From NCBI GenBank assembly GCA_002784465.1, contig PFLE01000011.1, positions 3,966 through 67,965 of the forward strand: a stretch of DNA of 64,000 nt, read 5' to 3'. A program made the position numbers and the translations under genes. The notes beneath the pieces are model-generated. The model did no database searches, was not told the DNA's origin, and was given only the letters and a program-made list of their open reading frames with translations. This DNA comes from Candidatus Shapirobacteria bacterium CG_4_10_14_0_8_um_filter_39_15 (lineage in GTDB: Bacteria > Patescibacteriota > Microgenomatia > UM-FILTER-39-15). Within the stretch, counting starts at the first letter, position 1, and every line of letters starts with the position of its first letter. Shown one piece after another: positions 3,146 through 58,321 of this stretch.

Positions 3146-3186
3146 AGCTTGATTCAATCGGAATAATTTTGTCCACATTTTCCATT

Positions 3187-3209
3187 TTCCACATCGGATG
3201 TGGAATAGC
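3187..3209. repeat. REP-A palindrome TTCCACATCGGATGTGGAA plus TAGC, left flank of RAYT-1
   Basis: Perfect 19-nt palindrome (9-bp stem, 1-nt centre) lying 37 nt upstream of the RAYT-1 start. Confidence 0.7.
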
Positions 3210-3245
3210 TTGACACATCGGGAATAAAAGGATAAATTTATTGTA

Positions 3246-3914
3246 ATGCCTTATCGATTTACTCCATTAGTGACAGGACAGTTTTATCACATCTTTAATC
3301 GTGGGATTGCTCGGCAACCAGTTTTTCTAGATAAATATGATTACCAAAGAATGATTGATACTCTTTGGTTTTATCATTTTGCTGAATCTTCTGTCAAATT
3401 TTCTCGCTATTTAACTCTTCCTTATAAACAAAAGACTTCCTTAATTAATACACTTGCACTTTCTAAAGACATCGTCTCTATTAACACTCATGCATTAATG
3501 CCCAATCATTTTCATCTTTTATTAAGTCAAGAAAAAGATGGAGGAATATCTAAGTTTATTAAGAAGGTAATTGATAGCTATACTCGTTTTTTCAATACCA
3601 AATACGAGAGAAATGGAGCCATCTTTCAAGGTCAGTTCAAAGCGAAATTAATCGAATCAGACGAACAACTTCTTCATCTTTCCAGATATATTCATCTAAA
3701 TCCCTATACCTCTCATATTGTGAATAGGTTAGAAGATATTATTAATTATCCCTGGTCTTCAATGAGTGAGTATATGAATATACGAGAGGGGATATCTAAT
3801 CCAAAATATATATTAAGTAATTTTGGGTCAAAAGAGAAATATTTAGAGTTCGTTAACGATCAGAAGAATTATCAGCGAATCTTGGGTGATATTAAGCATC
3901 TTACTTTCGAATAA
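3246..3914 (+). CDS. REP-associated tyrosine transposase-like protein (RAYT / IS200-like Y1 HuH transposase family), copy 1
   Basis: HuH motif MPNHFHLLL. The C-terminal pattern ...IFQGQFKAKLIESDEQLLHLSRYIHLNPY...INYPWSS matches E. coli RayT (IWQPRFWEHAI...YIYINPV...DWPFSS). It is a paralogue of the ORF at 57555..58214. Confidence 0.75.
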   Translation: MPYRFTPLVTGQFYHIFNRGIARQPVFLDKYDYQRMIDTLWFYHFAESSVKFSRYLTLPYKQKTSLINTLALSKDIVSINTHALMPNHFHLLLSQEKDGGISKFIKKVIDSYTRFFNTKYERNGAIFQGQFKAKLIESDEQLLHLSRYIHLNPYTSHIVNRLEDIINYPWSSMSEYMNIREGISNPKYILSNFGSKEKYLEFVNDQKNYQRILGDIKHLTFE

Positions 3915-3931
3915 TATCCCGACGTGCGAAC

Positions 3932-3953
3932 CTATTCCACATCCGATGTGGAA
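3932..3953. repeat. REP-A palindrome (CTA-TTCCACATCCGATGTGGAA), right flank of RAYT-1, inverted relative to the left copy
   Basis: Same 19-nt palindrome as the left copy with a complementary centre base. It lies 18 nt after the RAYT-1 stop. Confidence 0.7.
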
Positions 3954-3974
3954 AGGATATCCGCCGAGAAAAAA

Positions 3975-14878: not shown

Positions 14879-14953
14879 GGCCCCGTAGCTCAGCGGTAGA
14901 GCAGTTGCCTTTTAAGCAATTGGTCACAGGTTCGAGTCCTGTCGGGGTCACCA
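14879..14953 (+). tRNA. tRNA-Lys (anticodon TTT), CCA encoded
   Basis: Acceptor GGCCCCG/CGGGGTC, anticodon stem GTTGC/GCAAT with loop CTTTTAA, T-arm CACAGG-TTCGAGT-CCTGT. Confidence 0.85.
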
Positions 14954-14956
14954 TAT

Positions 14957-14995
14957 CTACGTTCACACCTTTAAGGTGAACTACGTTCACACCTT
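14957..14995. repeat. REP-B element copy a (CTACGTTCACACCTTTAAGGTGAACTACGTTCACACC)
   Basis: Direct repeat of (C/T)TACGTTCACACC around a palindromic core CACCTTTAAGGTG. It lies immediately 3' of tRNA-Lys. Confidence 0.75.
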
Positions 14996-15008
14996 GGGAA
15001 TCGAATCT

Positions 15009-28420: not shown

Positions 28421-30403
28421 TTAGAAGTTCACAACTGGACCGTCGTATGTAATCTTACCCATATTGATGATCACAACGCGAGAAGCAGTCTTTGCCACCT
28501 GCTGGTCATGGGTAACGATTACGACGGCGATTCCTTTTTGTATCAGTGCTTGTACTAAATCTAGAACTTTGGCAATTCCGTCTGCATCAAGCCCGATGGT
28601 TGGTTCGTCTAGAATCAGGACTTGAATTCCCGCGGTTGAGGCAGAAATCGCGAGCATTTCTACTTCACTTGGATGAAGATCCAATGGACAGCTTAGTGGT
28701 TCCAAACCGGTCCAATCAATTCCTTCCGTAACGAACGCTTCAATTCTACCCGAATCCCAATGTTGTATTTTAGGACTGAACGAAAGTTCGTCATTCACTG
28801 TCATTGAGATAGTTTGAAGAGAGGCATTTTGAAAGACGTAGCCGACTCCTCCTCTCGCCTTGACATTTCCCTTGATTGGCTTAATTGCACCGGCAAGAGT
28901 CAGCATCGCAGTTGTTTTTCCGGAACCATTAGGTCCCATAACAACCACAAGTTCGCCTTCTCTTAAGTCTAGCGAGATGCCGTTAAGAATTGCTGTTCCG
29001 TCTAGCTCCACATAGACATTGTCCATTTTAGCGATAATCTCTCCCGGAATAACAGACATTGGTGGCCGGAATTCGCGTAGAAGAGAGTATCGGGAAAGCA
29101 TCTCTTCGGTGAAGAACTCTCCGGGAAGAACATCCTGCGCAATTGTTCCTTTTTCTAGGGTAACTACCCGTGTAACAAAAGGTTTTATTTCACTCCAAAA
29201 GGGATCAGCGATTATCACGGTGCAAGGATTTTGAACGAGGAAATCCTTAAGAGCACTCAAGAATTCCTGCCGTCCTTGCGGATCAAGTTCCTGCATTGGG
29301 GAATCAAAAAGAAGAATTTTTGCTGTAGAAGCGAGAATTCCGGCAAGAACAAGCCGAACTTGCTGTCCTCCCGAAAGTTTAGTTATCTCCTTTTCCCACA
29401 AATCCCCGATTCCCATTATCTCAAGGGTTCTTCGTGCACTGATTTCGTTTTCGGCGAGGAAAGTTATCTCCTGCCCAACAGTGAGTCCGTGAAACGAAGC
29501 AAAGGGATCCGGGGATATATAACGGACTGATCCGGAAAGTTTTGCTAGGGACGTATTCATCGTATTCATCCCTGATGCAGTAACGCTTCCCATGAATTCG
29601 CCCATAATTGAACTGATAATACCCCCTACTACCCTAAGGAGCGTCGTTTTTCCAGATCCCGACCTCCCTGCTAGGTAGATAAATTCTCCACCATCAACCC
29701 TTAGGTTAATTCCCGTCAATACATCCGGAAGGAGGGGCGAGTAGCGAACATGTACGTCATTCAGAATAAGATCCCCATTTCCTTCAGGCTTTGTTCGTGT
29801 ATGCGATAAGCTGGCGGCTGCTCCTTTCTGAGTGTTGTCTATCACTCGAGGAATTATCGCCATTGCAAGTGGAATGAGATTCCTAATACTGGCGATTGGC
29901 GAATCCCACTTCAGCCCACGAATGATAAGCGATTGCGTGAGAGCCACAAACTCTCTTTTGATAATCTGGACCCCTCGAAGAATTGTCAAAACCCAAGGTT
30001 CTGCAGGTTTTATCCAGGATAATCCTTCGTACATCTCTGGAAGAGAGGTAGAAAGAAGCCAGGCAAACGAGATAAGCATCGCCCCGATGATTCTTGTCCC
30101 CATCACCAATCCTCTCTCGAAACCTGCTTGGTTCACTGTGAAAACTAACCATTGCCAGCCGCCATGACCTCTAGCGGAGAAAATCACGTTATAGAAAAAC
30201 ATCATCGCCCCGGTAATGGGAGCAGCTAAAACCAACTTCCAATTCCGATTTTCGCCCACAAGATAAATTACAATTCCAACAAGAAGGAAAAGGATTGCAC
30301 CCGGAATGTTGTTAATGAAAATGTAGAGACAACCGCTGGTGAAAACGACTACCAGCCTCACTCTTGGTGATAGAAAAGACAAACCTCTCTTCCTCGTCTT
30401 CAT
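28421..30403 (-). CDS. fused ECF-transporter T component (CbiQ/EcfT) plus two ABC ATPase domains (EcfA/EcfA')
   Basis: N-terminal multi-TM EcfT-like region, then Walker A GRSGSGKTT and signature LSGGQQ, then a second Walker A GPNGSGKTT. GC is far above the genome background. Confidence 0.75.
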   Translation of the reverse strand: MKTRKRGLSFLSPRVRLVVVFTSGCLYIFINNIPGAILFLLVGIVIYLVGENRNWKLVLAAPITGAMMFFYNVIFSARGHGGWQWLVFTVNQAGFERGLVMGTRIIGAMLISFAWLLSTSLPEMYEGLSWIKPAEPWVLTILRGVQIIKREFVALTQSLIIRGLKWDSPIASIRNLIPLAMAIIPRVIDNTQKGAAASLSHTRTKPEGNGDLILNDVHVRYSPLLPDVLTGINLRVDGGEFIYLAGRSGSGKTTLLRVVGGIISSIMGEFMGSVTASGMNTMNTSLAKLSGSVRYISPDPFASFHGLTVGQEITFLAENEISARRTLEIMGIGDLWEKEITKLSGGQQVRLVLAGILASTAKILLFDSPMQELDPQGRQEFLSALKDFLVQNPCTVIIADPFWSEIKPFVTRVVTLEKGTIAQDVLPGEFFTEEMLSRYSLLREFRPPMSVIPGEIIAKMDNVYVELDGTAILNGISLDLREGELVVVMGPNGSGKTTAMLTLAGAIKPIKGNVKARGGVGYVFQNASLQTISMTVNDELSFSPKIQHWDSGRIEAFVTEGIDWTGLEPLSCPLDLHPSEVEMLAISASTAGIQVLILDEPTIGLDADGIAKVLDLVQALIQKGIAVVIVTHDQQVAKTASRVVIINMGKITYDGPVVNF

Positions 30404-30484
30404 ATCTGCCTCCTAGAATACGTGGGACCGGACAGGCCAAATTGGGAACTGTCCGATCCCACTGACTAATGGAACCCAACAATG

Positions 30485-31270
30485 TTATTCGGCAATGCCG
30501 GCCTGGCGCAGGCGAAGGGTATATAGGGGTAAGAGGAACAACCCCAAGACGGCGGAGACCGTATCCCCCACAAACCAGCCGACACCAGGATCGATTAAGG
30601 CTGCCTCGATTGGTTTGCCACCCACGTAGGCTGCGAAGGCACCGATCAGCGCACTGACTCCACAGGCAACGACGGCAATGTCCACCGCGAGAACAAAGTG
30701 ATCCATGTTCAGGTTTCTGCCAACGTTCCCCAGGATGACGGGCACGCCCACCACCAGAACGATAAGGGGCAGAGCCAGACCCCAAGGGGATGGCAAAGCC
30801 AGAACAATATTGACCAGACCCGCCGCCATGACCGCCAGAGCGAGCACGACGACGCGAACGGCCCCGTTCAGCACGTCATACGGATCTTTGCAGCCGAACG
30901 TAGGATCAAGTCTTAACATTCGGAACAGAAGGGCAGGCAGCATTGCGTTGGCAAACCCGCCGGCAATGGGATTCTGGATGATGTCCGTAATACCCCATCC
31001 GCCATACGCGAAAATACCGGCTGTATACGCACCGAGTCCGCCTGCCACCGCTCCGAGCCATGGTCCAAGCCAGATTCCCGCGACCAACTGCAAGGCCGCA
31101 GGTAACCAGATGAAGCTCGCCCCCTTCACAGAGGGTGACGAACCAACGGTTATCATGACCCAACCGATCGCGGCGATGGCCACTGCCAGAAAGCCGGCGA
31201 AGGTGTAGCGTAGAACCGGGTCACGTCGTGCAACGTACGTCTTAGAACTTGCCATTGGAATTTCCTCCAT
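30485..31270 (-). CDS. integral membrane protein, putative ECF S-component (substrate capture subunit)
   Basis: 261 aa rich in Ala/Gly/Val/Leu with multiple TM helices. It lies between the ECF T/A gene and a 5-FCL-family gene. Other ORFs overlapping this GC-rich stretch are spurious. Confidence 0.45.
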   Translation of the reverse strand: MEEIPMASSKTYVARRDPVLRYTFAGFLAVAIAAIGWVMITVGSSPSVKGASFIWLPAALQLVAGIWLGPWLGAVAGGLGAYTAGIFAYGGWGITDIIQNPIAGGFANAMLPALLFRMLRLDPTFGCKDPYDVLNGAVRVVVLALAVMAAGLVNIVLALPSPWGLALPLIVLVVGVPVILGNVGRNLNMDHFVLAVDIAVVACGVSALIGAFAAYVGGKPIEAALIDPGVGWFVGDTVSAVLGLFLLPLYTLRLRQAGIAE

Positions 31271-31284
31271 TTTACTAACTTTTT

Positions 31285-32055
31285 TTACAGCTGAGAAGAA
31301 AGCCTGGTCGGCATACCTACCACCTCCTCCTGCATCGCCTGAAGCTCCCGAAGCGGAGGGATTGACCCCAACATTCCTGGCTGGAGACTATCCCAAACCA
31401 CCCCAAGAGTGGGTTTGTGCGGCTCGTCGACCTTGATCATCCTTCTCGGAGTGCAAATCAGATCACAAGCCGTGTCGAATGGATCGGCGGAGAATTGCTC
31501 GGTGACCACCTGGCAGTCATGAACAACTGCGACTACCGGTGTTTTGGCACTGACGACGCCGATTGAATAGAACATGGCCCATTCAAGATCGAAATAGCCA
31601 TGCCCTTTACCAATACGAATCCCTCCGATTGTTACTGCCCCTGTTCCGGTCACTAACAAGTCAATTTTGCCGAATATGCTTTTGATGCTTTGGAGTGATA
31701 TGATAGCACCTTCGTTTTCCATGCCATCCAGGGTAGCGGCATAAAGGTACCGGCTTTTTGGGATACCAGGACCGAGAAGAACAAACCCCCTCCGAATTCC
31801 ATATGTAGAAACAATGATCGTTTTTTCTTGCCATAAAGCATGGTAGCGCAACCTTTCCAAACAATTATCCGGGGTGATGAAGACAGTATCTGCCTGTCTC
31901 CAAAAATCGCTCCTTATTAACCGACCCAGGGCTTGACCGCTTCCTACAAAATCCGCGATAAATTCACCCAGATCCATGTCGAATCGGCTATCGGGACGAG
32001 CAACCCCCTTCCTTAACTTCTCAAAAACTGCTTGCCTGACTTCATTCTTATCCAT
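31285..32055 (-). CDS. 5-formyltetrahydrofolate cyclo-ligase-family (MTHFS-like fold) protein
   Basis: IGKGHGYFDLEW matches the GxGxGYYD motif, and ITPDNCLERLR is N-terminal-like. 256 aa. Confidence 0.5.
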   Translation of the reverse strand: MDKNEVRQAVFEKLRKGVARPDSRFDMDLGEFIADFVGSGQALGRLIRSDFWRQADTVFITPDNCLERLRYHALWQEKTIIVSTYGIRRGFVLLGPGIPKSRYLYAATLDGMENEGAIISLQSIKSIFGKIDLLVTGTGAVTIGGIRIGKGHGYFDLEWAMFYSIGVVSAKTPVVAVVHDCQVVTEQFSADPFDTACDLICTPRRMIKVDEPHKPTLGVVWDSLQPGMLGSIPPLRELQAMQEEVVGMPTRLSSQL

Positions 32056-34533: not shown

Positions 34534-34592
34534 CTACGTTCACACCTTAAAGGTGAATTAGCTTCACACCTCGGGTATTTGTTCACTTACGA
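34534..34592. repeat. REP-B element copy b with a 25-nt tail (…GAATTAGCTTCACACCTCGGGTATTTGTTCACTTACGAG)
   Basis: Same core as copy a. Its tail is shared with copy c. Confidence 0.7.
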
Positions 34593-34664
34593 GATGTTTT
34601 TGAATAAGACTTTCTAAAAAATGCCAATAATCACTTTTGCCCCGATCTATTCCTATAATGTTTA

Positions 34665-35855
34665 TTACTTATACCAATTCCTAAAATTCGGATATGGTCT
34701 ATCGAACATGCAACAAAGCAGTGCCATTCGTACGTCTACTCCATTTCCTACTTGGCGAAAATAAGCCGCCCTTGGGTCACTATCCACTCGAGGGTCTATT
34801 TCTCCTCTTCTGGGCAGAGGATGGATTAATGTTAAATCTTTCTTTGCTTCTTTCATAATTTCCGGCGTTATTCTATAGAGATTTTCGTAACGCCTACATT
34901 CATCAAGATCTTTAAATCTTTCATTTTGAATTCTTGTAACATACAAAACATCAAGTGATGGCAATACTTCCGCCAAATCGCCAGTAACGACTACCTCACT
35001 TTGTCCTCCCCGTGTTAAAGATTCAATAATTGGTTGAGGCATTGATAGTTGTTCAGGAGAAATAAAATAGAACACCGCCGGTCCGCCCATACAGTTCAAC
35101 GATTTAGTCAGCGAATGTACCGTCCTTCCGTGTTTTAAATCCCCCAACATTCCTATATGCAACCTATGTAAATCATTAGCATTTTTGAGTCTTTTTTCCC
35201 AAATAATTGTGGTAATATCCAAAAGAGCTTGACTTGGGTGTTCACCTATTCCATCTCCCGCATTTATGACTCGCGGTTTTGTTCCATCACACCTAGTCAT
35301 AGATTGAAGGGCAAAAGCGGCTATTGCTGCCGCCCCGACTTCAGGGTGCCTTTGAACAATGACTGGAGAAATTTCCCCCATGACAATGGCATTGTCGGCT
35401 ACCGTTTCTCCCTTCGAAAAAGAAGACATTCTTATCATATCAGGGTTAGAAACAACGTCTAATCCCAATATTTGAGCTGCCGCTTCAAAAGACGTCCTTG
35501 TTCTGGTGCTTGGCTCGTAAAATGCAGTTTGCATGGAAAGAGGAAAAAGCCAACTTTTCAACTCAAATAACGCTCGCTGCTCCTTAGACATCCTTGTATC
35601 TCTAATTCTTGTTGCCATATTCACAATTTCAGCAAAATCATTAGCGGTTAACTGTTCCACACTAATAAAACTTTTGTTTCCCCACTCTCCCTCAATTTTT
35701 GGAGGACGCCAATGCTCGGGCATTCCAATTCTTTCCGCCTCTTCCTTCATACTTAACGATCCCTCTCTTTTATTAGTGCTTAATTCGCTCGAATTAGGCT
35801 CAATGATTCTGGTAATATCTGGAATTATTTCAAACCGTTCAACACTGGCAAACAT
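34665..35855 (-). CDS. pyrB: aspartate carbamoyltransferase catalytic-chain-like protein with an N-terminal extension
   Basis: FYEPSTRTRTSFE, HPSQALLD, GDLKHGRTVHSL. Bracketed by direct REP-B copies b and c. Confidence 0.65.
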   Translation of the reverse strand: MFASVERFEIIPDITRIIEPNSSELSTNKREGSLSMKEEAERIGMPEHWRPPKIEGEWGNKSFISVEQLTANDFAEIVNMATRIRDTRMSKEQRALFELKSWLFPLSMQTAFYEPSTRTRTSFEAAAQILGLDVVSNPDMIRMSSFSKGETVADNAIVMGEISPVIVQRHPEVGAAAIAAFALQSMTRCDGTKPRVINAGDGIGEHPSQALLDITTIIWEKRLKNANDLHRLHIGMLGDLKHGRTVHSLTKSLNCMGGPAVFYFISPEQLSMPQPIIESLTRGGQSEVVVTGDLAEVLPSLDVLYVTRIQNERFKDLDECRRYENLYRITPEIMKEAKKDLTLIHPLPRRGEIDPRVDSDPRAAYFRQVGNGVDVRMALLCCMFDRPYPNFRNWYK

Positions 35856-36025
35856 ATTATTAAACTATTCCCTCTCATCGGTGGTTGAAATTTTCTAACA
35901 ATAACTTCTTATTGTGATATCTTCTCATGTTCTTCTTAATAAAGTTTTTGGCTCTAGGAAATTATTATAAAGACAATTTACCCCGGATCAAGTCCCACTT
36001 TAACTTCATACAACAGGTGTCAATG

Positions 36026-36081
36026 TTACCCACCTTAAAGGTGAATTAGCTTCACACCTCGGGTATTTGTTCACTTACGAG
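36026..36081. repeat. REP-B element copy c (same subtype and tail as b)
   Basis: CCACCTTAAAGGTGAATTAGCTTCACACCTCGGGTATTTGTTCACTTACGAG. It contains the dnaE stop codon. Confidence 0.7.
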
Positions 36082-44146: not shown

Positions 44147-44193
44147 CTACGTTCACACCTTAAAGGTGAATTACGTTCACACCTTCGTTATTC
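44147..44193. repeat. REP-B element copy d (AACTACGTTCACACCTTAAAGGTGAATTACGTTCACACCTTCG)
   Basis: Intergenic between gatC and gatA. Confidence 0.75.
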
Positions 44194-49504: not shown

Positions 49505-49554
49505 TCTACGTTCACACCTTAAAGGTGATCTAGCTTCGCACCTCGGGATTTTTC
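49505..49554. repeat. REP-B element copy e (TCTACGTTCACACCTTAAAGGTGATCTAGCTTCGCACCTCGGGATTTTTC)
   Basis: Same subtype as copies b and c. It supplies the last codons and the stop of the ORF 49519..50763. Confidence 0.7.
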
Positions 49555-56576: not shown

Positions 56577-56604
56577 TTGACAAGCTATCACCATTTGATA
56601 TAAT
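56577..56604 (+). promoter_or_regulatory. near-consensus sigma70 promoter (TTGACA, 16-nt spacer, TGaTATAAT extended -10)
   Basis: TTGACAagctatcaccatttgaTATAAT, giving a predicted start near 56611. Confidence 0.6.
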
Positions 56605-56610
56605 CTTTTC

Positions 56611-57472
56611 TTACGAATCACAAATTGGTGATGCAGTTTGAAAAAGGAGGTTCTTAACTAATTGACAGCAAACAGTCAGACAGTATGGAGATTCAATTCA
56701 CCCTGCCTGGACTGTTAGCCTACACCACTACGGCACACGGAGAGTACACGTTACTGAGGGGTCACGTTCTTGGGTGTTAGCTCCACAATTTCACGCACAT
56801 GTTGGGTATCACGGTGTGTGCCGTAAAGGGGAAGGTTTGGGTTCGGCGGAGCTTATGGTTGGGCTGTGATGCTGATCTCGCCTTTTCCTTGGATCCCGTC
56901 CGGCGGGATCCTGCTCAGACTCGGGAGGGTTTTTGTGGTGGAATCCCCCTGAGTCACAATCGACATGGCTCGGGTAAAGACCAAAAGGAGGTAGTATGGC
57001 AGTAGAAATCTTCCTGATTTCCTGGCTCGGCAAGGTTGCCAATCGCCAGTGCCAAGCGAATCCCTGTCAGGTCATGGTACCCCGAGCCGACTCCAACTCC
57101 CTCGGTTGTCATTTAGGATGGAGCCGTCTTGGGCCTGTCTAGTTTTGTTCGGGATCGGATTCGTCGGGAGTTGTCTTCGTTTTACGCCGTCGAGCTGTTG
57201 TATCTGATCAAGGTAAATCACCTTGCGTGATGCGTCAAACAGTTACGGTAATATTTACAGCGACAACTCTCTAATCGTTGTTCACAACCGGTCTAAATAG
57301 GAGGTAACATGCCTCTGTACAAATCCGGTATTTGTCGGCACAAGGTTCTGGGCCTTGTAAGCTGACTCGGTGAATCCGGGAAAATGAATGGCGTTCGTCA
57401 GCTCCGGCGGAGATGAAAACACAAGGTTACCAAACCTGTGCCACCATCATCTCTTCCGGAGCTCTTTTTTTA
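56611..57472 (+). ncRNA. candidate large structured non-coding RNA of unknown class (GC-rich, about 860 nt, no long ORF)
   Basis: GC about 50 % against about 36 % in the flanks. Longest ORF about 77 codons. An 8-bp/5-nt hairpin GGATCCCG-TCCGG-CGGGATCC lies at 56892-56912. Terminator-like CCGGAGCTC plus T7 at 57455-57472. Motif-level resemblance to RNase P P4 and to tmRNA only. Confidence 0.3.
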
Positions 57473-57473
57473 T

Positions 57474-57515
57474 AACTACGTTCACACCTTAAAGGTGAAT
57501 TACGTTCGCACCTCC
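57474..57515. repeat. REP-B element copy f (AACTACGTTCACACCTTAAAGGTGAATTACGTTCGCACCTCC), left flank of RAYT-2
   Basis: Lies 40 nt upstream of the RAYT-2 start. Confidence 0.75.
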
Positions 57516-57554
57516 TACTTTACATTCTTATTTAATTATTTTATAGTAATAATT

Positions 57555-58214
57555 ATGCCAGGGAGAAATCCAATTTTAGCTACAGGTGAAATTTATCATG
57601 TTTTTAATCGAGGTGTTGAACATCGTCAAATCTTTCATGATGTTTATGACTATCAAAGAGCAATTGGAGCAATTAATTTCTATCAACACAATCCAGAACT
57701 TAAATTTTCAGATTTTCTTAATCTCCCAATCGATCAAAAGCAACAAATTCTAAAAGATATTGATAAATTACCAAAAATTGTCGAAATACTCTGCGAATGT
57801 TTAATGCCTAATCATTTCCATTTCCTTCTTGAGCAATTAACCGATCAAGGAATTTCTATTTTTTTGAGTAAATTTACAAATAGCTATACTAAATATTTTA
57901 ATACAAGAGATAACCGTGACGGAAGTTTGTTTGGAGGTCCATTTAAGGCAGTTCGCATCGATACAACTGAACAGCTACTTCAGGTTTCTCGATATGTCCA
58001 CTTAAACCCTGTTGTTTCTTTTTTAATTAAACCCGAGGAAATAATAAATTATCAATGGTCTTCATTGAAAGAATTATTAGAAAAACCTACGACTGCTCAA
58101 AAGGAATTAATTCTTTCATCATTCCAAACTCCAGCAAAATATCAGGAATTTGTCATGGATCAAGTTAACTATGCAAAATCGCTGGAAAATTTAAAAGACA
58201 AATTTTTTGAATAA
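57555..58214 (+). CDS. REP-associated tyrosine transposase-like protein (RAYT / Y1 HuH), copy 2
   Basis: HuH LMPNHFHFLL and ...GGPFKAVRIDTTEQLLQVSRYVHLNPV...INYQWSS. About 45 % identical to copy 1. ATG at 57555 is preferred to the ORF-track start at 57438. Confidence 0.75.
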   Translation: MPGRNPILATGEIYHVFNRGVEHRQIFHDVYDYQRAIGAINFYQHNPELKFSDFLNLPIDQKQQILKDIDKLPKIVEILCECLMPNHFHFLLEQLTDQGISIFLSKFTNSYTKYFNTRDNRDGSLFGGPFKAVRIDTTEQLLQVSRYVHLNPVVSFLIKPEEIINYQWSSLKELLEKPTTAQKELILSSFQTPAKYQEFVMDQVNYAKSLENLKDKFFE

Positions 58215-58222
58215 AACGAAAG

Positions 58223-58250
58223 GTGTGAACCTAGTTCACCTTAAAGGTGG
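58223..58250. repeat. REP-B element copy g, truncated and inverted (GGTGTGAACCTAGTTCACCTTAAAGGTG)
   Basis: Lies 9 nt after the RAYT-2 stop and abuts or overlaps the tRNA-Val 3' end. Confidence 0.65.
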
Positions 58251-58321
58251 GTACGGAAGGACTTGAACCTTCGGCCTCCTGAATGTGAATCAGGCGCTCC
58301 AGCCGCTGAGCTACGTACCCA
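58249..58321 (-). tRNA. tRNA-Val (anticodon CAC)
   Basis: Minus strand: D-stem GCTC/GAGC, anticodon stem CCTGA/TCAGG with loop TTCACAT, T-arm GAAGG-TTCAAGT-CCTTC, acceptor 3' CGTACCC. Position 1 is T, giving a T1:C72 mismatch. Confidence 0.7.

What the first reader, a model, noticed from the sequence alone, without database searches (positions are those of the whole stretch)
57474..58321. REP/RAYT unit 2: a paralogous RAYT flanked by inverted REP-B copies and abutting a tRNA-Val
The second RAYT-like ORF (57555..58214) is about 45 % identical to copy 1. Both end in ...FE.

It is bracketed by REP-B copy f (57474-57515) and by the truncated, inverted copy g (58223-58250). REP-B is a different palindrome family from REP-A. 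It carries CTAC (GTAG on the other strand) next to the hairpin, as canonical REPs do.

Copy g runs into the 3' end of a minus-strand tRNA-Val(CAC). The whole unit lies directly downstream of the GC-rich non-coding locus.

Two RAYTs, each with its own cognate REP, imply two co-evolving REP/RAYT systems in one small genome.
Basis: partly seen in the sequence, partly recalled or inferred. Interest (0 to 1): 0.65.

Follow-up and report, generated by a model that had tools for sequence, protein, structure and literature searches.

The report
RAYT-like nuclease gene with cognate repeats
A small tyrosine-nuclease gene in an ultra-small groundwater bacterium sits between two inverted copies of a short hairpin repeat that is also scattered through the genome; this is a known kind of mini mobile-DNA system, seen here in a bacterial group where the papers I could search do not describe it.

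Summary
ORF 57555-58214 encodes a 219-aa Y1 HUH protein, 45.5% identical to a paralog at 3246-3914. Its predicted fold is closest to E. coli TnpA_REP (4ER8).

The ORF is bracketed by a 35-nt inverted repeat (57479-57513 / 58221-58255) built from REP-B. REP-B is a hairpin (CACCTTWAAGGTG) plus a repeated CTACGTTCACACCT module. Its core occurs 7 times in 64 kb, against 0.03 expected. The outer module of the right arm is replaced by the 3' acceptor strand of an intact tRNA-Val(CAC).

Four orthologs from other genomes (61-70% identity) carry the same REP-B core on both flanks. None of 88 more distant relatives does.

Amendments:
- The protein carries the motif signature of RAYT subclass 2.1 (TIRYT), not of canonical RAYTs.
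- A third paralog lies just outside the window.
- REP-A has no solo copies in the window.
- The link to tRNA-Val(CAC) is shared by three of five clade members, so it looks ancestral.
- A sigma-70-like promoter placed for a leaderless mRNA sits at the inner edge of the left arm, and this is common across the family.

Verdict: a new member of the REPtron/TIRtron kind, in Patescibacteria. Moderate interest.

The parts
57474..57513 (+). REP-B copy f, the left (promoter-proximal) arm. Layout: CTAC + module GTTCACACCT, hairpin loop and return strand TAAAGGTGAA, TTAC + second module GTTCGCACCT. The module repeats directly with a 24-nt period.
   Evidence: (direct repeat D3, inverted repeats I1 and I3). 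Folded as DNA: -4.7 kcal/mol, z -2.1.
57519..57547 (+). Sigma-70-like promoter TTTACA-17-TATAGT. The -10 box ends 7 nt before the ATG, so a leaderless RAYT mRNA is predicted.
   Evidence: 10 of 12 matches. The same arrangement is found in 29 of 60 family members, against 0.9 expected from shuffles.
57555..58214 (+). RAYT2: a 219-aa Y1 HUH nuclease with HUH motif NHFH (H87, H89), catalytic Tyr147 in YVHLNP, and an all-helical C-terminal tail.
58219..58255 (-). REP-B copy g, the right arm, inverted relative to copy f. The inner module (AGGTGTGAAC), CTAG and the hairpin are present. The outer module is replaced by the 3' acceptor strand of tRNA-Val.
   Evidence: (I1). A terminator-like hairpin with a T-rich tail on the minus strand at 58239-58225.
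58246..58320 (-). tRNA-Val(CAC), intact. Its 3' end (CACC) forms the 5' half of the right-arm hairpin stem.
   Evidence: (70.1 bits).
14957..14997 (+). Solo REP-B copy a. It starts 4 bases (3 intervening) after the CCA end of tRNA-Lys (14879-14953).
34534..34575 (+). Solo REP-B copy b, followed by a copy of the last ~55 nt of dnaE.
36015..36063 (+). Solo REP-B copy c, with a variant left part. Its second module supplies the last codons and the stop codon of dnaE (minus strand).
44147..44187 (+). Solo REP-B copy d, intergenic between two minus-strand genes.
49506..49545 (+). Solo REP-B copy e, 16 nt after the 3' end of a plus-strand gene.
3186..3954 (+). Paralogous unit 1, given for comparison: RAYT1 (3246-3914) between REP-A arms 3186-3223 and 3917-3954. 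Same arm layout as unit 2. Promoter TTGACA-17-TAAATT, with the -35 box inside the arm.

Best explanation
The unit is a REPtron/TIRtron of a Candidatus Shapirobacteria (Patescibacteria) genome.

The gene encodes a single-domain Y1 HUH tyrosine nuclease of the RAYT superfamily. It belongs to a ~220-aa family that is very common in Patescibacteria. The gene sits between two inverted copies of its own recognition element, REP-B. REP-B is a short bulged hairpin preceded by a GTAG-like tetranucleotide, plus a second copy of the stem module.

Inferred mechanism, by analogy with E. coli TnpA_REP and IS608 TnpA: the enzyme binds the REP-B hairpin on single-stranded DNA at the replication fork. It cuts next to the tetranucleotide through a 5'-phosphotyrosine intermediate, and it can rejoin strands. 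This has seeded solo REP-B copies in intergenic DNA and at gene 3' ends.

The gene itself does not multiply. It is inherited vertically at a locus next to tRNA-Val(CAC). It is probably transcribed as a leaderless mRNA from a promoter at the inner edge of the left arm, so binding of the protein to that arm could repress its own synthesis.

Shown: gene, fold class, catalytic motifs, inverted arms, dispersed copies, clade-specific arm sequence, position of the promoter-like site.

Inferred: cleavage, mobilisation, autoregulation.
For: Protein:
- Pfam Y1_Tnp. REP_Tyr_transpos is the only NCBIfam hit for 21 of 21 family members.
- HUH histidines and the tyrosine are invariant in the alignment.
- AF2 model pLDDT 83. 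Best PDB fold match is 4ER8_A, TnpA_REP bound to a REP hairpin (E 4.9e-5, TM 0.64 normalised to the target), ahead of the IS608 and ISDra2 TnpA structures.

Arms:
- 35-nt inverted repeat.
- Most of the 88 related gene units fetched from other Patescibacteria genomes show the same layout, a hairpin plus a TAGCTTGACAC-type module in inverted copies within about 100 nt of the gene.

Cognate pairing:
- The REP-B core is in both flanks of 4 of 4 orthologs (61-70% identity) and in 0 of 88 distant units.
- RAYT3 and its 61% relative L038 share a different stem, TTCCCAC...GTGGGAA.
- Protein identity correlates with flank similarity (Mantel rho 0.36 upstream, 0.21 downstream, p<=0.001).

Dispersal:
- 5 solo copies, all extragenic or overlapping a gene 3' end.
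- No REP-B core or module match (the patterns) in 51 kb from three relatives with 72-74% DnaE identity. The dnaE-PRTase junction is an empty site in two of them.
- All 5 solo copies have the same orientation, which puts the strand with the tetranucleotide 5' of the hairpin on the inferred lagging-strand template. GC skew is -0.095 and 34 of 45 large ORFs are on the minus strand.

Not an insertion sequence:
- The three paralogs are only 42-45% identical.
- The Y motif is Y---NP (class 2), not the Y---Q of IS200 (Table 1 of PMC6006769).

Promoter.
Against: - No activity data exist. Nothing shows that this protein cuts REP-B or moved any copy.
- Ten assemblies of the same population are at least 99.95% identical with no indels, so no recent movement is visible.
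- The hairpin is short and weak (about -5 kcal/mol, z -1.1 to -2.1).
- The inner tetranucleotide varies among copies (GTAG, GTAA, CTAA, CTAG).
- The protein lacks the W-Q motif that contacts GTAG in E. coli TnpA_REP. It falls below the NCBIfam equivalog cutoff (35.7 against 80).
- Its motif signature matches subclass 2.1, for which the literature reports no REP association (PMC6006769).
- In most related loci no solo copies are seen within 20 kb.
- Only 64 kb of this genome could be surveyed, so the genome-wide copy number is unknown.
- The Mantel correlation could reflect shared descent alone.
- Promoter sites placed for leaderless mRNAs also occur at 6 of 44 other genes in the window under a more lenient test.
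Confidence: 0.7

Rival explanations
1. The gene is a fully domesticated host gene. Its arms are its own regulatory elements: an operator/promoter on the left and a terminator on the right. The solo REP-B copies are functional RNA or DNA hairpins (terminators, mRNA stabilisers, tRNA 3' processing signals). They would have spread by recombination or duplication and be kept by selection, not mobilised by the nuclease.
For: - Promoter at the inner edge of the left arm, a family-wide feature.
- The right arm forms a terminator-like hairpin with a T-rich tail behind tRNA-Val.
- Two copies follow tRNA 3' ends.
- The locus is inherited vertically next to tRNA-Val(CAC) and near the 820-aa hydrolase gene.
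- Copies b and c were duplicated together with about 55 nt of dnaE, which a Y1 cut-and-paste mechanism would not produce.
- No strain polymorphism.
Against: - Solo copies have no consistent orientation relative to transcription (3 sit between minus-strand genes, 2 follow plus-strand genes or a tRNA). Their orientation relative to replication is uniform, 5 of 5.
- Most solo copies lack a T tail.
- The catalytic HUH and Tyr residues are invariant across the family, which argues that nuclease activity is retained.
- Recombination alone does not explain identical 40-nt elements at unrelated sites.
Confidence: 0.17
2. The unit is an autonomous IS200/IS605-type insertion sequence. The flanking hairpins would be its left and right ends, and it would have inserted next to tRNA-Val.
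For: - Pfam Y1_Tnp hit.
- Fold similarity to the IS608 and ISDra2 TnpA structures (E about 1e-3).
- Hairpins at both ends.
- Proximity to a tRNA gene.
Against: - There are no near-identical gene copies. The paralogs are 42-45% identical.
- The ends are inverted, whereas IS200/IS605 ends carry same-strand hairpins.
- The protein is 219 aa with a C-terminal tail and a Y---NP motif, against about 150 aa and Y---Q for IS200 TnpA (PMC6006769 Table 1).
- No tnpB gene is present.
- No NCBIfam hit other than REP_Tyr_transpos, so no IS200-type model matched.
- Solo hairpin copies outnumber the gene.
- The locus is shared with orthologs in other species.
Confidence: 0.04
3. The unit is a decaying relic. 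The nuclease once mobilised REP-B but is now inactive or irrelevant. The repeats would be fossils drifting neutrally.
For: - No polymorphism among strains.
- The right arm is damaged (outer module lost), and copy c has a degenerate left half.
- RAYT2 itself has FG where the family has FQ.
Against: - The ORF is intact, with all invariant family residues.
- Orthologs at 61-70% identity are all intact, with conserved arms and promoter.
- Eight module copies are identical to the 12-mer ACGTTCACACCT, which is too uniform for old fossils.
- The family is retained across Patescibacteria, at 563 confirmed loci in species-representative genomes.
Confidence: 0.09

Closest known systems
TIRYT / TIRtron (Di Nocera et al. 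2013, PMC3733652) = TnpA_Y1 subclass 2.1 (Quentin et al. 2018, PMC6006769) = RAYT Group 1 (Bertels et al. 2017, PMC5581495)
   Same: - Motif signature NH[YF]H, FQ, Y[IV]HLNP, plus an SS motif in the tail.
- Length about 220-240 aa with a C-terminal extension.
- Low copy number, with divergent paralogs in one genome.
- The gene is flanked by about 35-40-nt terminal inverted repeats, some partly self-complementary, some with moderately abundant genomic families.
- The inner arm motif GGTGTSAA resembles the published GGGGWSAS (6 of 8).
   Different: - Published members are mostly Proteobacteria and Acidobacteria. Subclass 2.1 was reported to have no REP-like hairpins nearby.
- Here each arm contains a true hairpin with a GTAG-like tag and behaves like a REP, with solo dispersed copies.
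- No Pfam HTH domain is detected in the tail.
- The host is Patescibacteria.
- Assignment rests on motif comparison with a published table, not on a phylogeny.
E. coli TnpA_REP / REPtron (RAYT subclass 2.2, Group 2; structure 4ER8, PMC3479197)
   Same: - Best structural match.
- A Y1 HUH enzyme whose gene is flanked by inverted REPs.
- REPs have a GT[AG]G tetranucleotide 5' of a bulged hairpin and are dispersed extragenically.
- Each RAYT has its own REP family.
   Different: - Only about 15% sequence identity.
- Below the NCBIfam equivalog cutoff.
- Lacks the W94/Q95-type motif that reads the guide tetranucleotide.
- The hairpin is much shorter (6 bp, 8-9 bp in alternative pairings, with a 2-nt bulge).
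- The element carries a second, directly repeated module that allows two alternative hairpins.
- Copy number is unknown but probably tens, not hundreds.
IS200/IS605 TnpA (IS608, ISDra2)
   Same: - HUH/Tyr fold.
- Recognition of subterminal hairpins on single-stranded DNA.
- Expected orientation bias toward the lagging-strand template.
   Different: - The gene is not multicopy.
- The ends are inverted.
- The protein is longer and has Y---NP rather than Y---Q.
- No tnpB gene.
REPIN / BIME arrangements (Bertels and Rainey 2011, PMC3116915)
   Same: - Short palindromic units in alternating orientation.
- Non-autonomous; thought to be replicated by a single-copy RAYT.
- Vertically inherited.
   Different: - REP-B solo copies are not two full inverted REPs separated by a spacer. 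They are module / partial inverted module / module, 40 nt in all.
- No population-level data are available.

Membership tests
RAYT superfamily (TnpA_Y1 class 2) | Y1 HUH core: an HuH motif and a single catalytic Tyr in a Y---NP motif | tested here: met
   NHFH (H87, H89) and Y147-VHL-N151-P152, invariant in the 21-sequence alignment. Pfam Y1_Tnp 24 bits against a cutoff of 23; the paralogs score 33.5 and 29.4 bits.
RAYT superfamily (TnpA_Y1 class 2) | Fold of TnpA_REP / IS200 TnpA | tested here: met
   AF2 pLDDT 83, pTM 0.81. Foldseek top hit is 4ER8_A (E 4.9e-5, TM 0.64 normalised to the target), followed by IS608, ISDra2 and IS200 TnpA structures.
RAYT superfamily (TnpA_Y1 class 2) | Low copy number, with divergent rather than identical paralogs | tested here: met
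   Three paralogs within about 70 kb, 42-45% identical to one another. The whole genome was not available.
REPtron (canonical RAYT + REP) | Gene flanked by REP copies in inverted orientation | tested here: met
   35-nt inverted repeat, 83% complementary, 42 nt upstream and 5 nt downstream of the ORF.
REPtron (canonical RAYT + REP) | The flanking repeat belongs to a family dispersed in extragenic DNA | tested here: met
   REP-B has 5 solo copies in 64 kb, against 0.03 expected core matches. The genome-wide number is not testable here. REP-A, the repeat of unit 1, does not meet this within the window.
REPtron (canonical RAYT + REP) | GT[AG]G tetranucleotide 0-2 nt 5' of the hairpin foot | tested here: inconclusive
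   On the minus strand the tetranucleotide directly 5' of the hairpin is GTAG (copy a), GTAA (d, f), CTAA (b, c) or CTAG (e, g). A second, well-conserved GTAG lies 3' of the hairpin in 5 of 7 copies. The tag is present but not uniformly canonical.
REPtron (canonical RAYT + REP) | NCBIfam REP_Tyr_transpos equivalog score at or above the cutoff | tested here: not met
   35.7 bits against a cutoff of 80. It is nevertheless the only NCBIfam hit for all 21 members.
REPtron (canonical RAYT + REP) | W-Q/E motif and other GTAG-contacting residues of E. coli TnpA_REP | tested here: not met
   The family has F-Q at that position, and RAYT2 has F-G. This matches the FQ variant listed for subclass 2.1 in PMC6006769 Table 1.
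REPtron (canonical RAYT + REP) | Sequence-specific cleavage and rejoining of REP single-stranded DNA | not testable with these tools
   Requires purified protein and oligonucleotides.
TIRYT / subclass 2.1 | Motif signature NH[YF]H, FQ, Y[IV]HLNP, SS in the proximal tail; median length 238 aa | tested here: met
   Alignment consensus MPNHFHFLL, LFQGxFKA, RYIHLNP, WSS; lengths 215-227 aa, compared with PMC6006769 Table 1. This is a motif comparison only. No tree with reference sequences was built.
TIRYT / subclass 2.1 | C-terminal HTH-like domain (Bac_DnaA_C, HTH_23, HTH_28) | tested here: not met
   No Pfam hit for residues 147-219 even at E<=1. The model shows an all-helical tail.
TIRYT / subclass 2.1 | Flanking terminal inverted repeats, many with a GGGGWSAS motif | tested here: inconclusive
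   Inverted arms are present. The inner motif GGTGTGAA / GGTGTCAA matches GGGGWSAS at 6 of 8 positions but does not fit the consensus.
IS200/IS605 insertion sequence | Multiple near-identical copies; Y---Q motif; same-strand subterminal hairpins; often tnpB | tested here: not met
   No second copy above 46% identity, the motif is Y---NP, the arms are inverted, and there is no tnpB-like ORF.

The most novel reading that the evidence does not exclude
Patescibacteria carry a phylum-wide, vertically inherited family of domesticated Y1 HUH nucleases, with two to three or more divergent paralogs per roughly 1-Mb genome.

Each paralog would have a private hairpin 'address' that also serves as the operator of its own leaderless promoter.

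In some lineages, such as this Shapirobacteria, one address (REP-B) has multiplied and now shapes the genome. It supplies stop codons and C-terminal residues (DnaE), fuses to tRNA 3' ends where it may act as a terminator, brackets an inserted gene, and permits inversion of the nuclease gene between its arms.

Retention in such reduced genomes would point to a host-level function in handling single-stranded DNA at the replication fork, not to parasitism.
Probability: 0.25. Interest if true: 0.7.

Novelty: new member of a known kind. Interest (0 to 1): 0.42.

Why it matters
What RAYTs do for their hosts is still unsettled. The published surveys I consulted (PMC5581495, PMC6006769, PMC3733652) do not mention Patescibacteria; PMC6006769 was searched for the terms and has none.

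This locus shows that a RAYT-type family with cognate hairpin arms is common in Patescibacteria, whose genomes are about 1 Mb and strongly reduced. Genomes can keep several divergent paralogs.

It also links a subclass 2.1 / TIRYT-like protein to a true dispersed REP family. That blurs the published divide between REP-associated and TIR-associated subclasses.

Practical point: these genes are annotated 'transposase' or 'hypothetical protein' in metagenome-assembled genomes. REP-B-type repeats can extend ORFs (DnaE here) and sit on tRNA ends, which matters for annotation and assembly.

Tried and rejected
- Metagenome-wide scan with a 24-specified-base REP-B pattern returned only 5 stretches. 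One is the window's own copy a; the others are two distinct further sites, each found in two contigs. It was too sparse for a genome-wide census, and the collection evidently holds little of this genome.
- Ten assemblies of the same population were compared for presence/absence of REP copies. All are at least 99.95% identical without indels, so they say nothing about mobility.
- The central base of the hairpin loop is the same on the plus strand in both arms, in the window and in four orthologs. I considered this as a sign of strand-specific constraint. I dropped it because it is a single base, solo copy a differs, and the orthologs are not independent.
- I considered that tRNA-Val's missing encoded CCA was caused by the REP. 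Only 2 of the 6 tRNAs in the window encode CCA, so this was rejected.
- General tRNA targeting: 6 of 88 family units lie within 150 nt of a tRNA, against 1.6% expected (p=0.003). This is a weak enrichment, not a defined insertion site.
- The GC-rich locus upstream is not part of the unit. It has its own promoter and terminator, no Rfam match, and no similarity in ortholog loci.
- Rfam sub-threshold hits in the region were dismissed. Plastid-ycf2 is the antisense of the tRNA. HPnc0260 (E 0.066) and mir-5391 (E 0.77) are taken as chance.
- The afdb50 fold library was unavailable.
- Sequence search of the PDB is only marginal: ISDra2 TnpA 21.7 bits over the HUH region, 4ER8 17.1 bits. The fold search was needed.
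- A looser search for REP-A found no solo copies.
- The Mantel correlation is kept only as consistent evidence, because shared ancestry could produce it.
Full report
**1. What is in the sequence**

The ORF at 57555-58214 (+) encodes 219 aa. A paralog at 3246-3914 (+) is 45.5% identical over its full length. Both end in FE.

Upstream, 57474-57513 reads AACTACGTTCACACCTTAAAGGTGAATTACGTTCGCACCT. This contains:
- a module CTACGTTCACACCT;
- a return strand AAGGTGAA that pairs with the module to give a short bulged hairpin;
- a second, directly repeated copy of the module, 24 nt after the first (D3).

Downstream, 58219-58255 reads AAAGGTGTGAACCTAGTTCACCTTAAAGGTGGGTACG, the same layout inverted. The two arms form a 35-nt inverted repeat, 83% complementary (I1).

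ARAGORN and Rfam place an intact tRNA-Val(CAC) at 58246/58248-58320 on the minus strand. Its 3' end CACC is the 5' half of the right-arm hairpin stem. Its acceptor 3' strand CGTACCCACC stands where the outer module CGTTCACACC would be, matching it at 8 of 10 positions.

**2. More than chance**

- The 13-nt hairpin core occurs at 7 places in the window, against 0.03 expected.
- The 12-nt module gives 16 matches at up to 2 mismatches, against 2.2 expected. Eight of the matches are exact.
- Besides the two arms there are five solo copies, at 14957, 34534, 36015/36031, 44147 and 49506.
- All five are extragenic, or overlap only the last codons of a gene.
- All five have the same orientation as the left arm.
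- As single-stranded DNA the hairpins are modest: about -5 kcal/mol, z from -1.1 to -2.1.

**3. The protein**

- Pfam Y1_Tnp is just above its cutoff (24 against 23 bits). The paralogs score higher.
- The only NCBIfam hit, for all 21 aligned family members, is REP_Tyr_transpos, below the equivalog cutoff (35.7 against 80 bits for RAYT2).
- The HUH histidines (H87, H89) and Tyr147 in a Y-x-x-x-N-P motif are invariant in the alignment.
- The AlphaFold model is confident (pLDDT 83).
- Its best PDB match is 4ER8, E. coli TnpA_REP bound to a REP hairpin (E 4.9e-5). The IS608, ISDra2 and IS200 transposases follow at E around 1e-3.
- By sequence alone the PDB matches are marginal.

**4. Which kind of RAYT**

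The family consensus is NHFH, LFQG, Y[IV]HLNP and WSS, at about 220 aa. This matches the signature listed for TnpA_Y1 subclass 2.1 in Table 1 of Quentin et al. 2018 (PMC6006769). It does not match subclass 2.2 (DHLH, WE, YIHYNP), which holds the E. coli enzyme.

Subclass 2.1 equals Bertels' Group 1 and largely corresponds to the TIRYTs of Di Nocera et al. 2013 (PMC3733652). Those are tyrosine transposases flanked by terminal inverted repeats rather than canonical REPs. Quentin et al. found no REP-like sequences near subclass 2.1 genes. Bertels et al. found only modest flanking 16-mer abundance for Group 1.

This placement is a motif comparison, not a phylogeny. No Pfam HTH domain was found in the tail.

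**5. Organism and spread of the family**

- The protein is identical to a hypothetical protein of Candidatus Shapirobacteria bacterium CG08_land.
- The word-indexed search returned 1967 homologs. The named ones among the best hits are Microgenomates-group lineages: Levybacteria, Daviesbacteria, Gottesmanbacteria.
- Most of the 88 gene units in the 80 loci fetched show a hairpin-bearing inverted repeat within about 100 nt of each end. Many have the arm layout 'hairpin - TAGC - TTGACAC...'.
- Solo copies within these 20-kb loci are uncommon.
- Eight loci hold two paralogs.
- This genome has a third paralog 6.8 kb beyond the window end. It is 215 aa, 42-43% identical to the other two, and has its own hairpin GTTCCCACTTGACAAGTGGGAAC.

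**6.

Contigs were fetched for four orthologs of RAYT2 (61-70% identity).
- All four carry CACCTTTAAGGTG together with GTTCRCACCT modules in both flanks, in inverted arrangement.
- None of the 88 more distant units (51% identity or less) has an exact core. Five have it with one mismatch.
- RAYT3's nearest relative (L038, 61%) shares RAYT3's TTCCCAC...GTGGGAA stem.
- Across 57 units, protein identity correlates with flank similarity: Mantel rho 0.36 upstream and 0.21 downstream, p<=0.001. Shared descent could also give this.

So each paralog clade keeps its own hairpin, and three different ones coexist in this genome. REP-A, however, is present only as the two arms of unit 1 in this window. REP-A-like and REP-B-like solo elements lie side by side in another genome, with no RAYT in the locus.

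**7. Evidence bearing on mobility**

- Assemblies of the same population from ten samples are at least 99.95% identical with no indels, so no current movement is visible.
- Three relatives with 72-74% DnaE identity have no REP-B core or module match in 51 kb.
- In two of those relatives, dnaE is followed after 10-12 nt by a phosphoribosyltransferase gene.
- In the window the same junction holds REP-B copy c, a pyrB-like gene, a duplicate of the last ~55 nt of dnaE, and REP-B copy b.
- DnaE here has an 8-residue C-terminal extension whose last codons and stop codon lie in the REP module.

REP-B therefore expanded in this lineage and is associated with rearrangement. The flanking-DNA duplication looks like recombination rather than a clean Y1 reaction.

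On orientation: the plus strand has negative GC skew throughout the window, and 34 of 45 large ORFs are on the minus strand. The minus-strand sequence is therefore the lagging-strand template. All five solo copies put the strand with the tetranucleotide 5' of the hairpin on that template. This is what the IS608 paradigm predicts (abstract of PMC6006769). With five copies it is only suggestive.

**8. The tRNA**

- The tRNA is intact, and so is its ortholog in L100 (72.5 bits).
- The RAYT2-clade unit lies just downstream of tRNA-Val(CAC) in three of five genomes: the window, L100 and L101. The linkage is therefore probably ancestral, not a fresh insertion.
- In L101 a full outer module lies 16 nt after the tRNA. 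In the window the tRNA end is fused directly to the hairpin. This is as expected from a small deletion at the shared CAC.
- Relative to the tRNA, and relative to the neighbouring 820-aa hydrolase gene in L096, the RAYT gene is inverted in the window compared with the orthologs. That fits recombination between the inverted arms.
- Across the family, tRNA proximity is only weakly enriched: 6 of 88 units against 1.6% expected.
- The right arm also forms a terminator-like hairpin with a T-rich tail behind the tRNA.

**9. Expression**

A sigma-70-like promoter TTTACA-17-TATAGT lies at 57519-57547, and its -10 box ends 7 nt before the ATG. The same geometry, with the -10 box ending 5-9 nt before the start codon, is found in 29 of 60 family members against 0.9 expected from shuffles. 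Usually the -35 box TTGACA is inside the arm's second module.

This predicts leaderless mRNAs, and it makes autoregulation by arm binding plausible (inference). The arrangement is not unique to these genes: 6 of 44 other ORFs in the window show it under a more lenient test.

**10. Verdict**

It is a REPtron/TIRtron-type unit. Its Y1 nuclease is structurally closest to TnpA_REP but carries the subclass 2.1 / TIRYT motif signature. It has a cognate, lineage-specifically expanded REP family.

No paper listed in three full-text searches of the held library mentions RAYTs together with Patescibacteria or CPR terms; the listed top hits all had zero occurrences of 'RAYT'. It is therefore a new member of a known kind in an unreported host group, with some instructive details: the tRNA-end fusion, the ORF extension, the promoter in the arm, and three paralogs in a tiny genome. 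Mechanistic steps beyond the anatomy are inferred.

Noticed in passing
window 56577-57471 (+): A GC-rich non-coding transcription unit of about 860 nt (50-62% GC against 39% for the window). It has a consensus promoter TTGACA-17-TATAAT at 56577-56605 and a 17-bp hairpin plus T7 terminator at 57400-57471, which ends 2 nt before REP-B copy f. No Rfam family matches even at E<=1. No similar sequence is found in the RAYT2-ortholog loci. Its identity is unknown.
   Followed up: partly
window 34534-36063; L102 13498-13508; L103 5189-5201: The pyrB-like gene (34665-35855, minus strand) is bracketed by direct repeats made of the last ~55 nt of dnaE plus REP-B (51 nt identical, about 76 nt similar). 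In two relatives with 72% DnaE identity, dnaE abuts the phosphoribosyltransferase gene with no REP and no pyrB. This looks like a REP-associated insertion or rearrangement.
   Followed up: partly
window 36052-36078 (-): DnaE carries an 8-residue C-terminal extension (VSEQIPEV) that relatives lack. Its last codons and the stop codon lie inside the REP-B module.
   Followed up: yes
L082 17061-17708 (-), about 6.8 kb right of the window end, between ileS and ftsZ: A third RAYT paralog: 215 aa, 42-43% identical to RAYT1 and RAYT2, with Y motif YIHRNS. It is flanked by its own hairpin GTTCCCACTTGACAAGTGGGAAC. The two flanking copies appear to be in direct rather than inverted orientation.
   Followed up: partly
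window 14879-14997: Solo REP-B copy a starts 4 bases (3 intervening) after the encoded CCA of tRNA-Lys(UUU). It is the second REP-B copy in the window that lies directly behind a tRNA 3' end, and it has the same orientation relative to the tRNA as copy g.
   Followed up: partly
L100 457-700; L101 1-125; L096 3350-4200: Orthologs of RAYT2 lie downstream of tRNA-Val(CAC) in L100 and L101, and next to the ortholog of the 820-aa hydrolase in L096. In each case the RAYT gene is inverted relative to the window. This fits inversion by recombination between the inverted arms.
   Followed up: partly
L101 about 850-880: A sequence resembling a tRNA T-arm plus 3' acceptor strand (GGTGGTTCGATCCCACGCACGTGCA) lies directly after the right arm of the ortholog unit. 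Neither ARAGORN nor Rfam calls a tRNA there. It may be a tRNA remnant.
   Followed up: partly
L091 8769-8870; L093 2787-2890: In another genome (contig of 864 kb), a REP-B-like element and a REP-A-like element (TAGACACATCCGATGTGGGTTAGGTAGACACATCGGGA) lie side by side, with no RAYT gene in the locus. This is a BIME-like cluster of two REP families.
   Followed up: no
window 29000-32000: A second stretch of raised GC (46-52%). It is covered by minus-strand ORFs of 660, 261 and 256 aa, and Rfam finds no rRNA or other RNA there. It was not examined further.
   Followed up: no
window 14410-58320 (all six tRNAs): Only 2 of the 6 tRNA genes (Lys, Gly) encode the 3' CCA. tRNA-Gly(CCC) and tRNA-Thr(CGU) are directly adjacent, with no spacer (48701/48702).
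   Followed up: no
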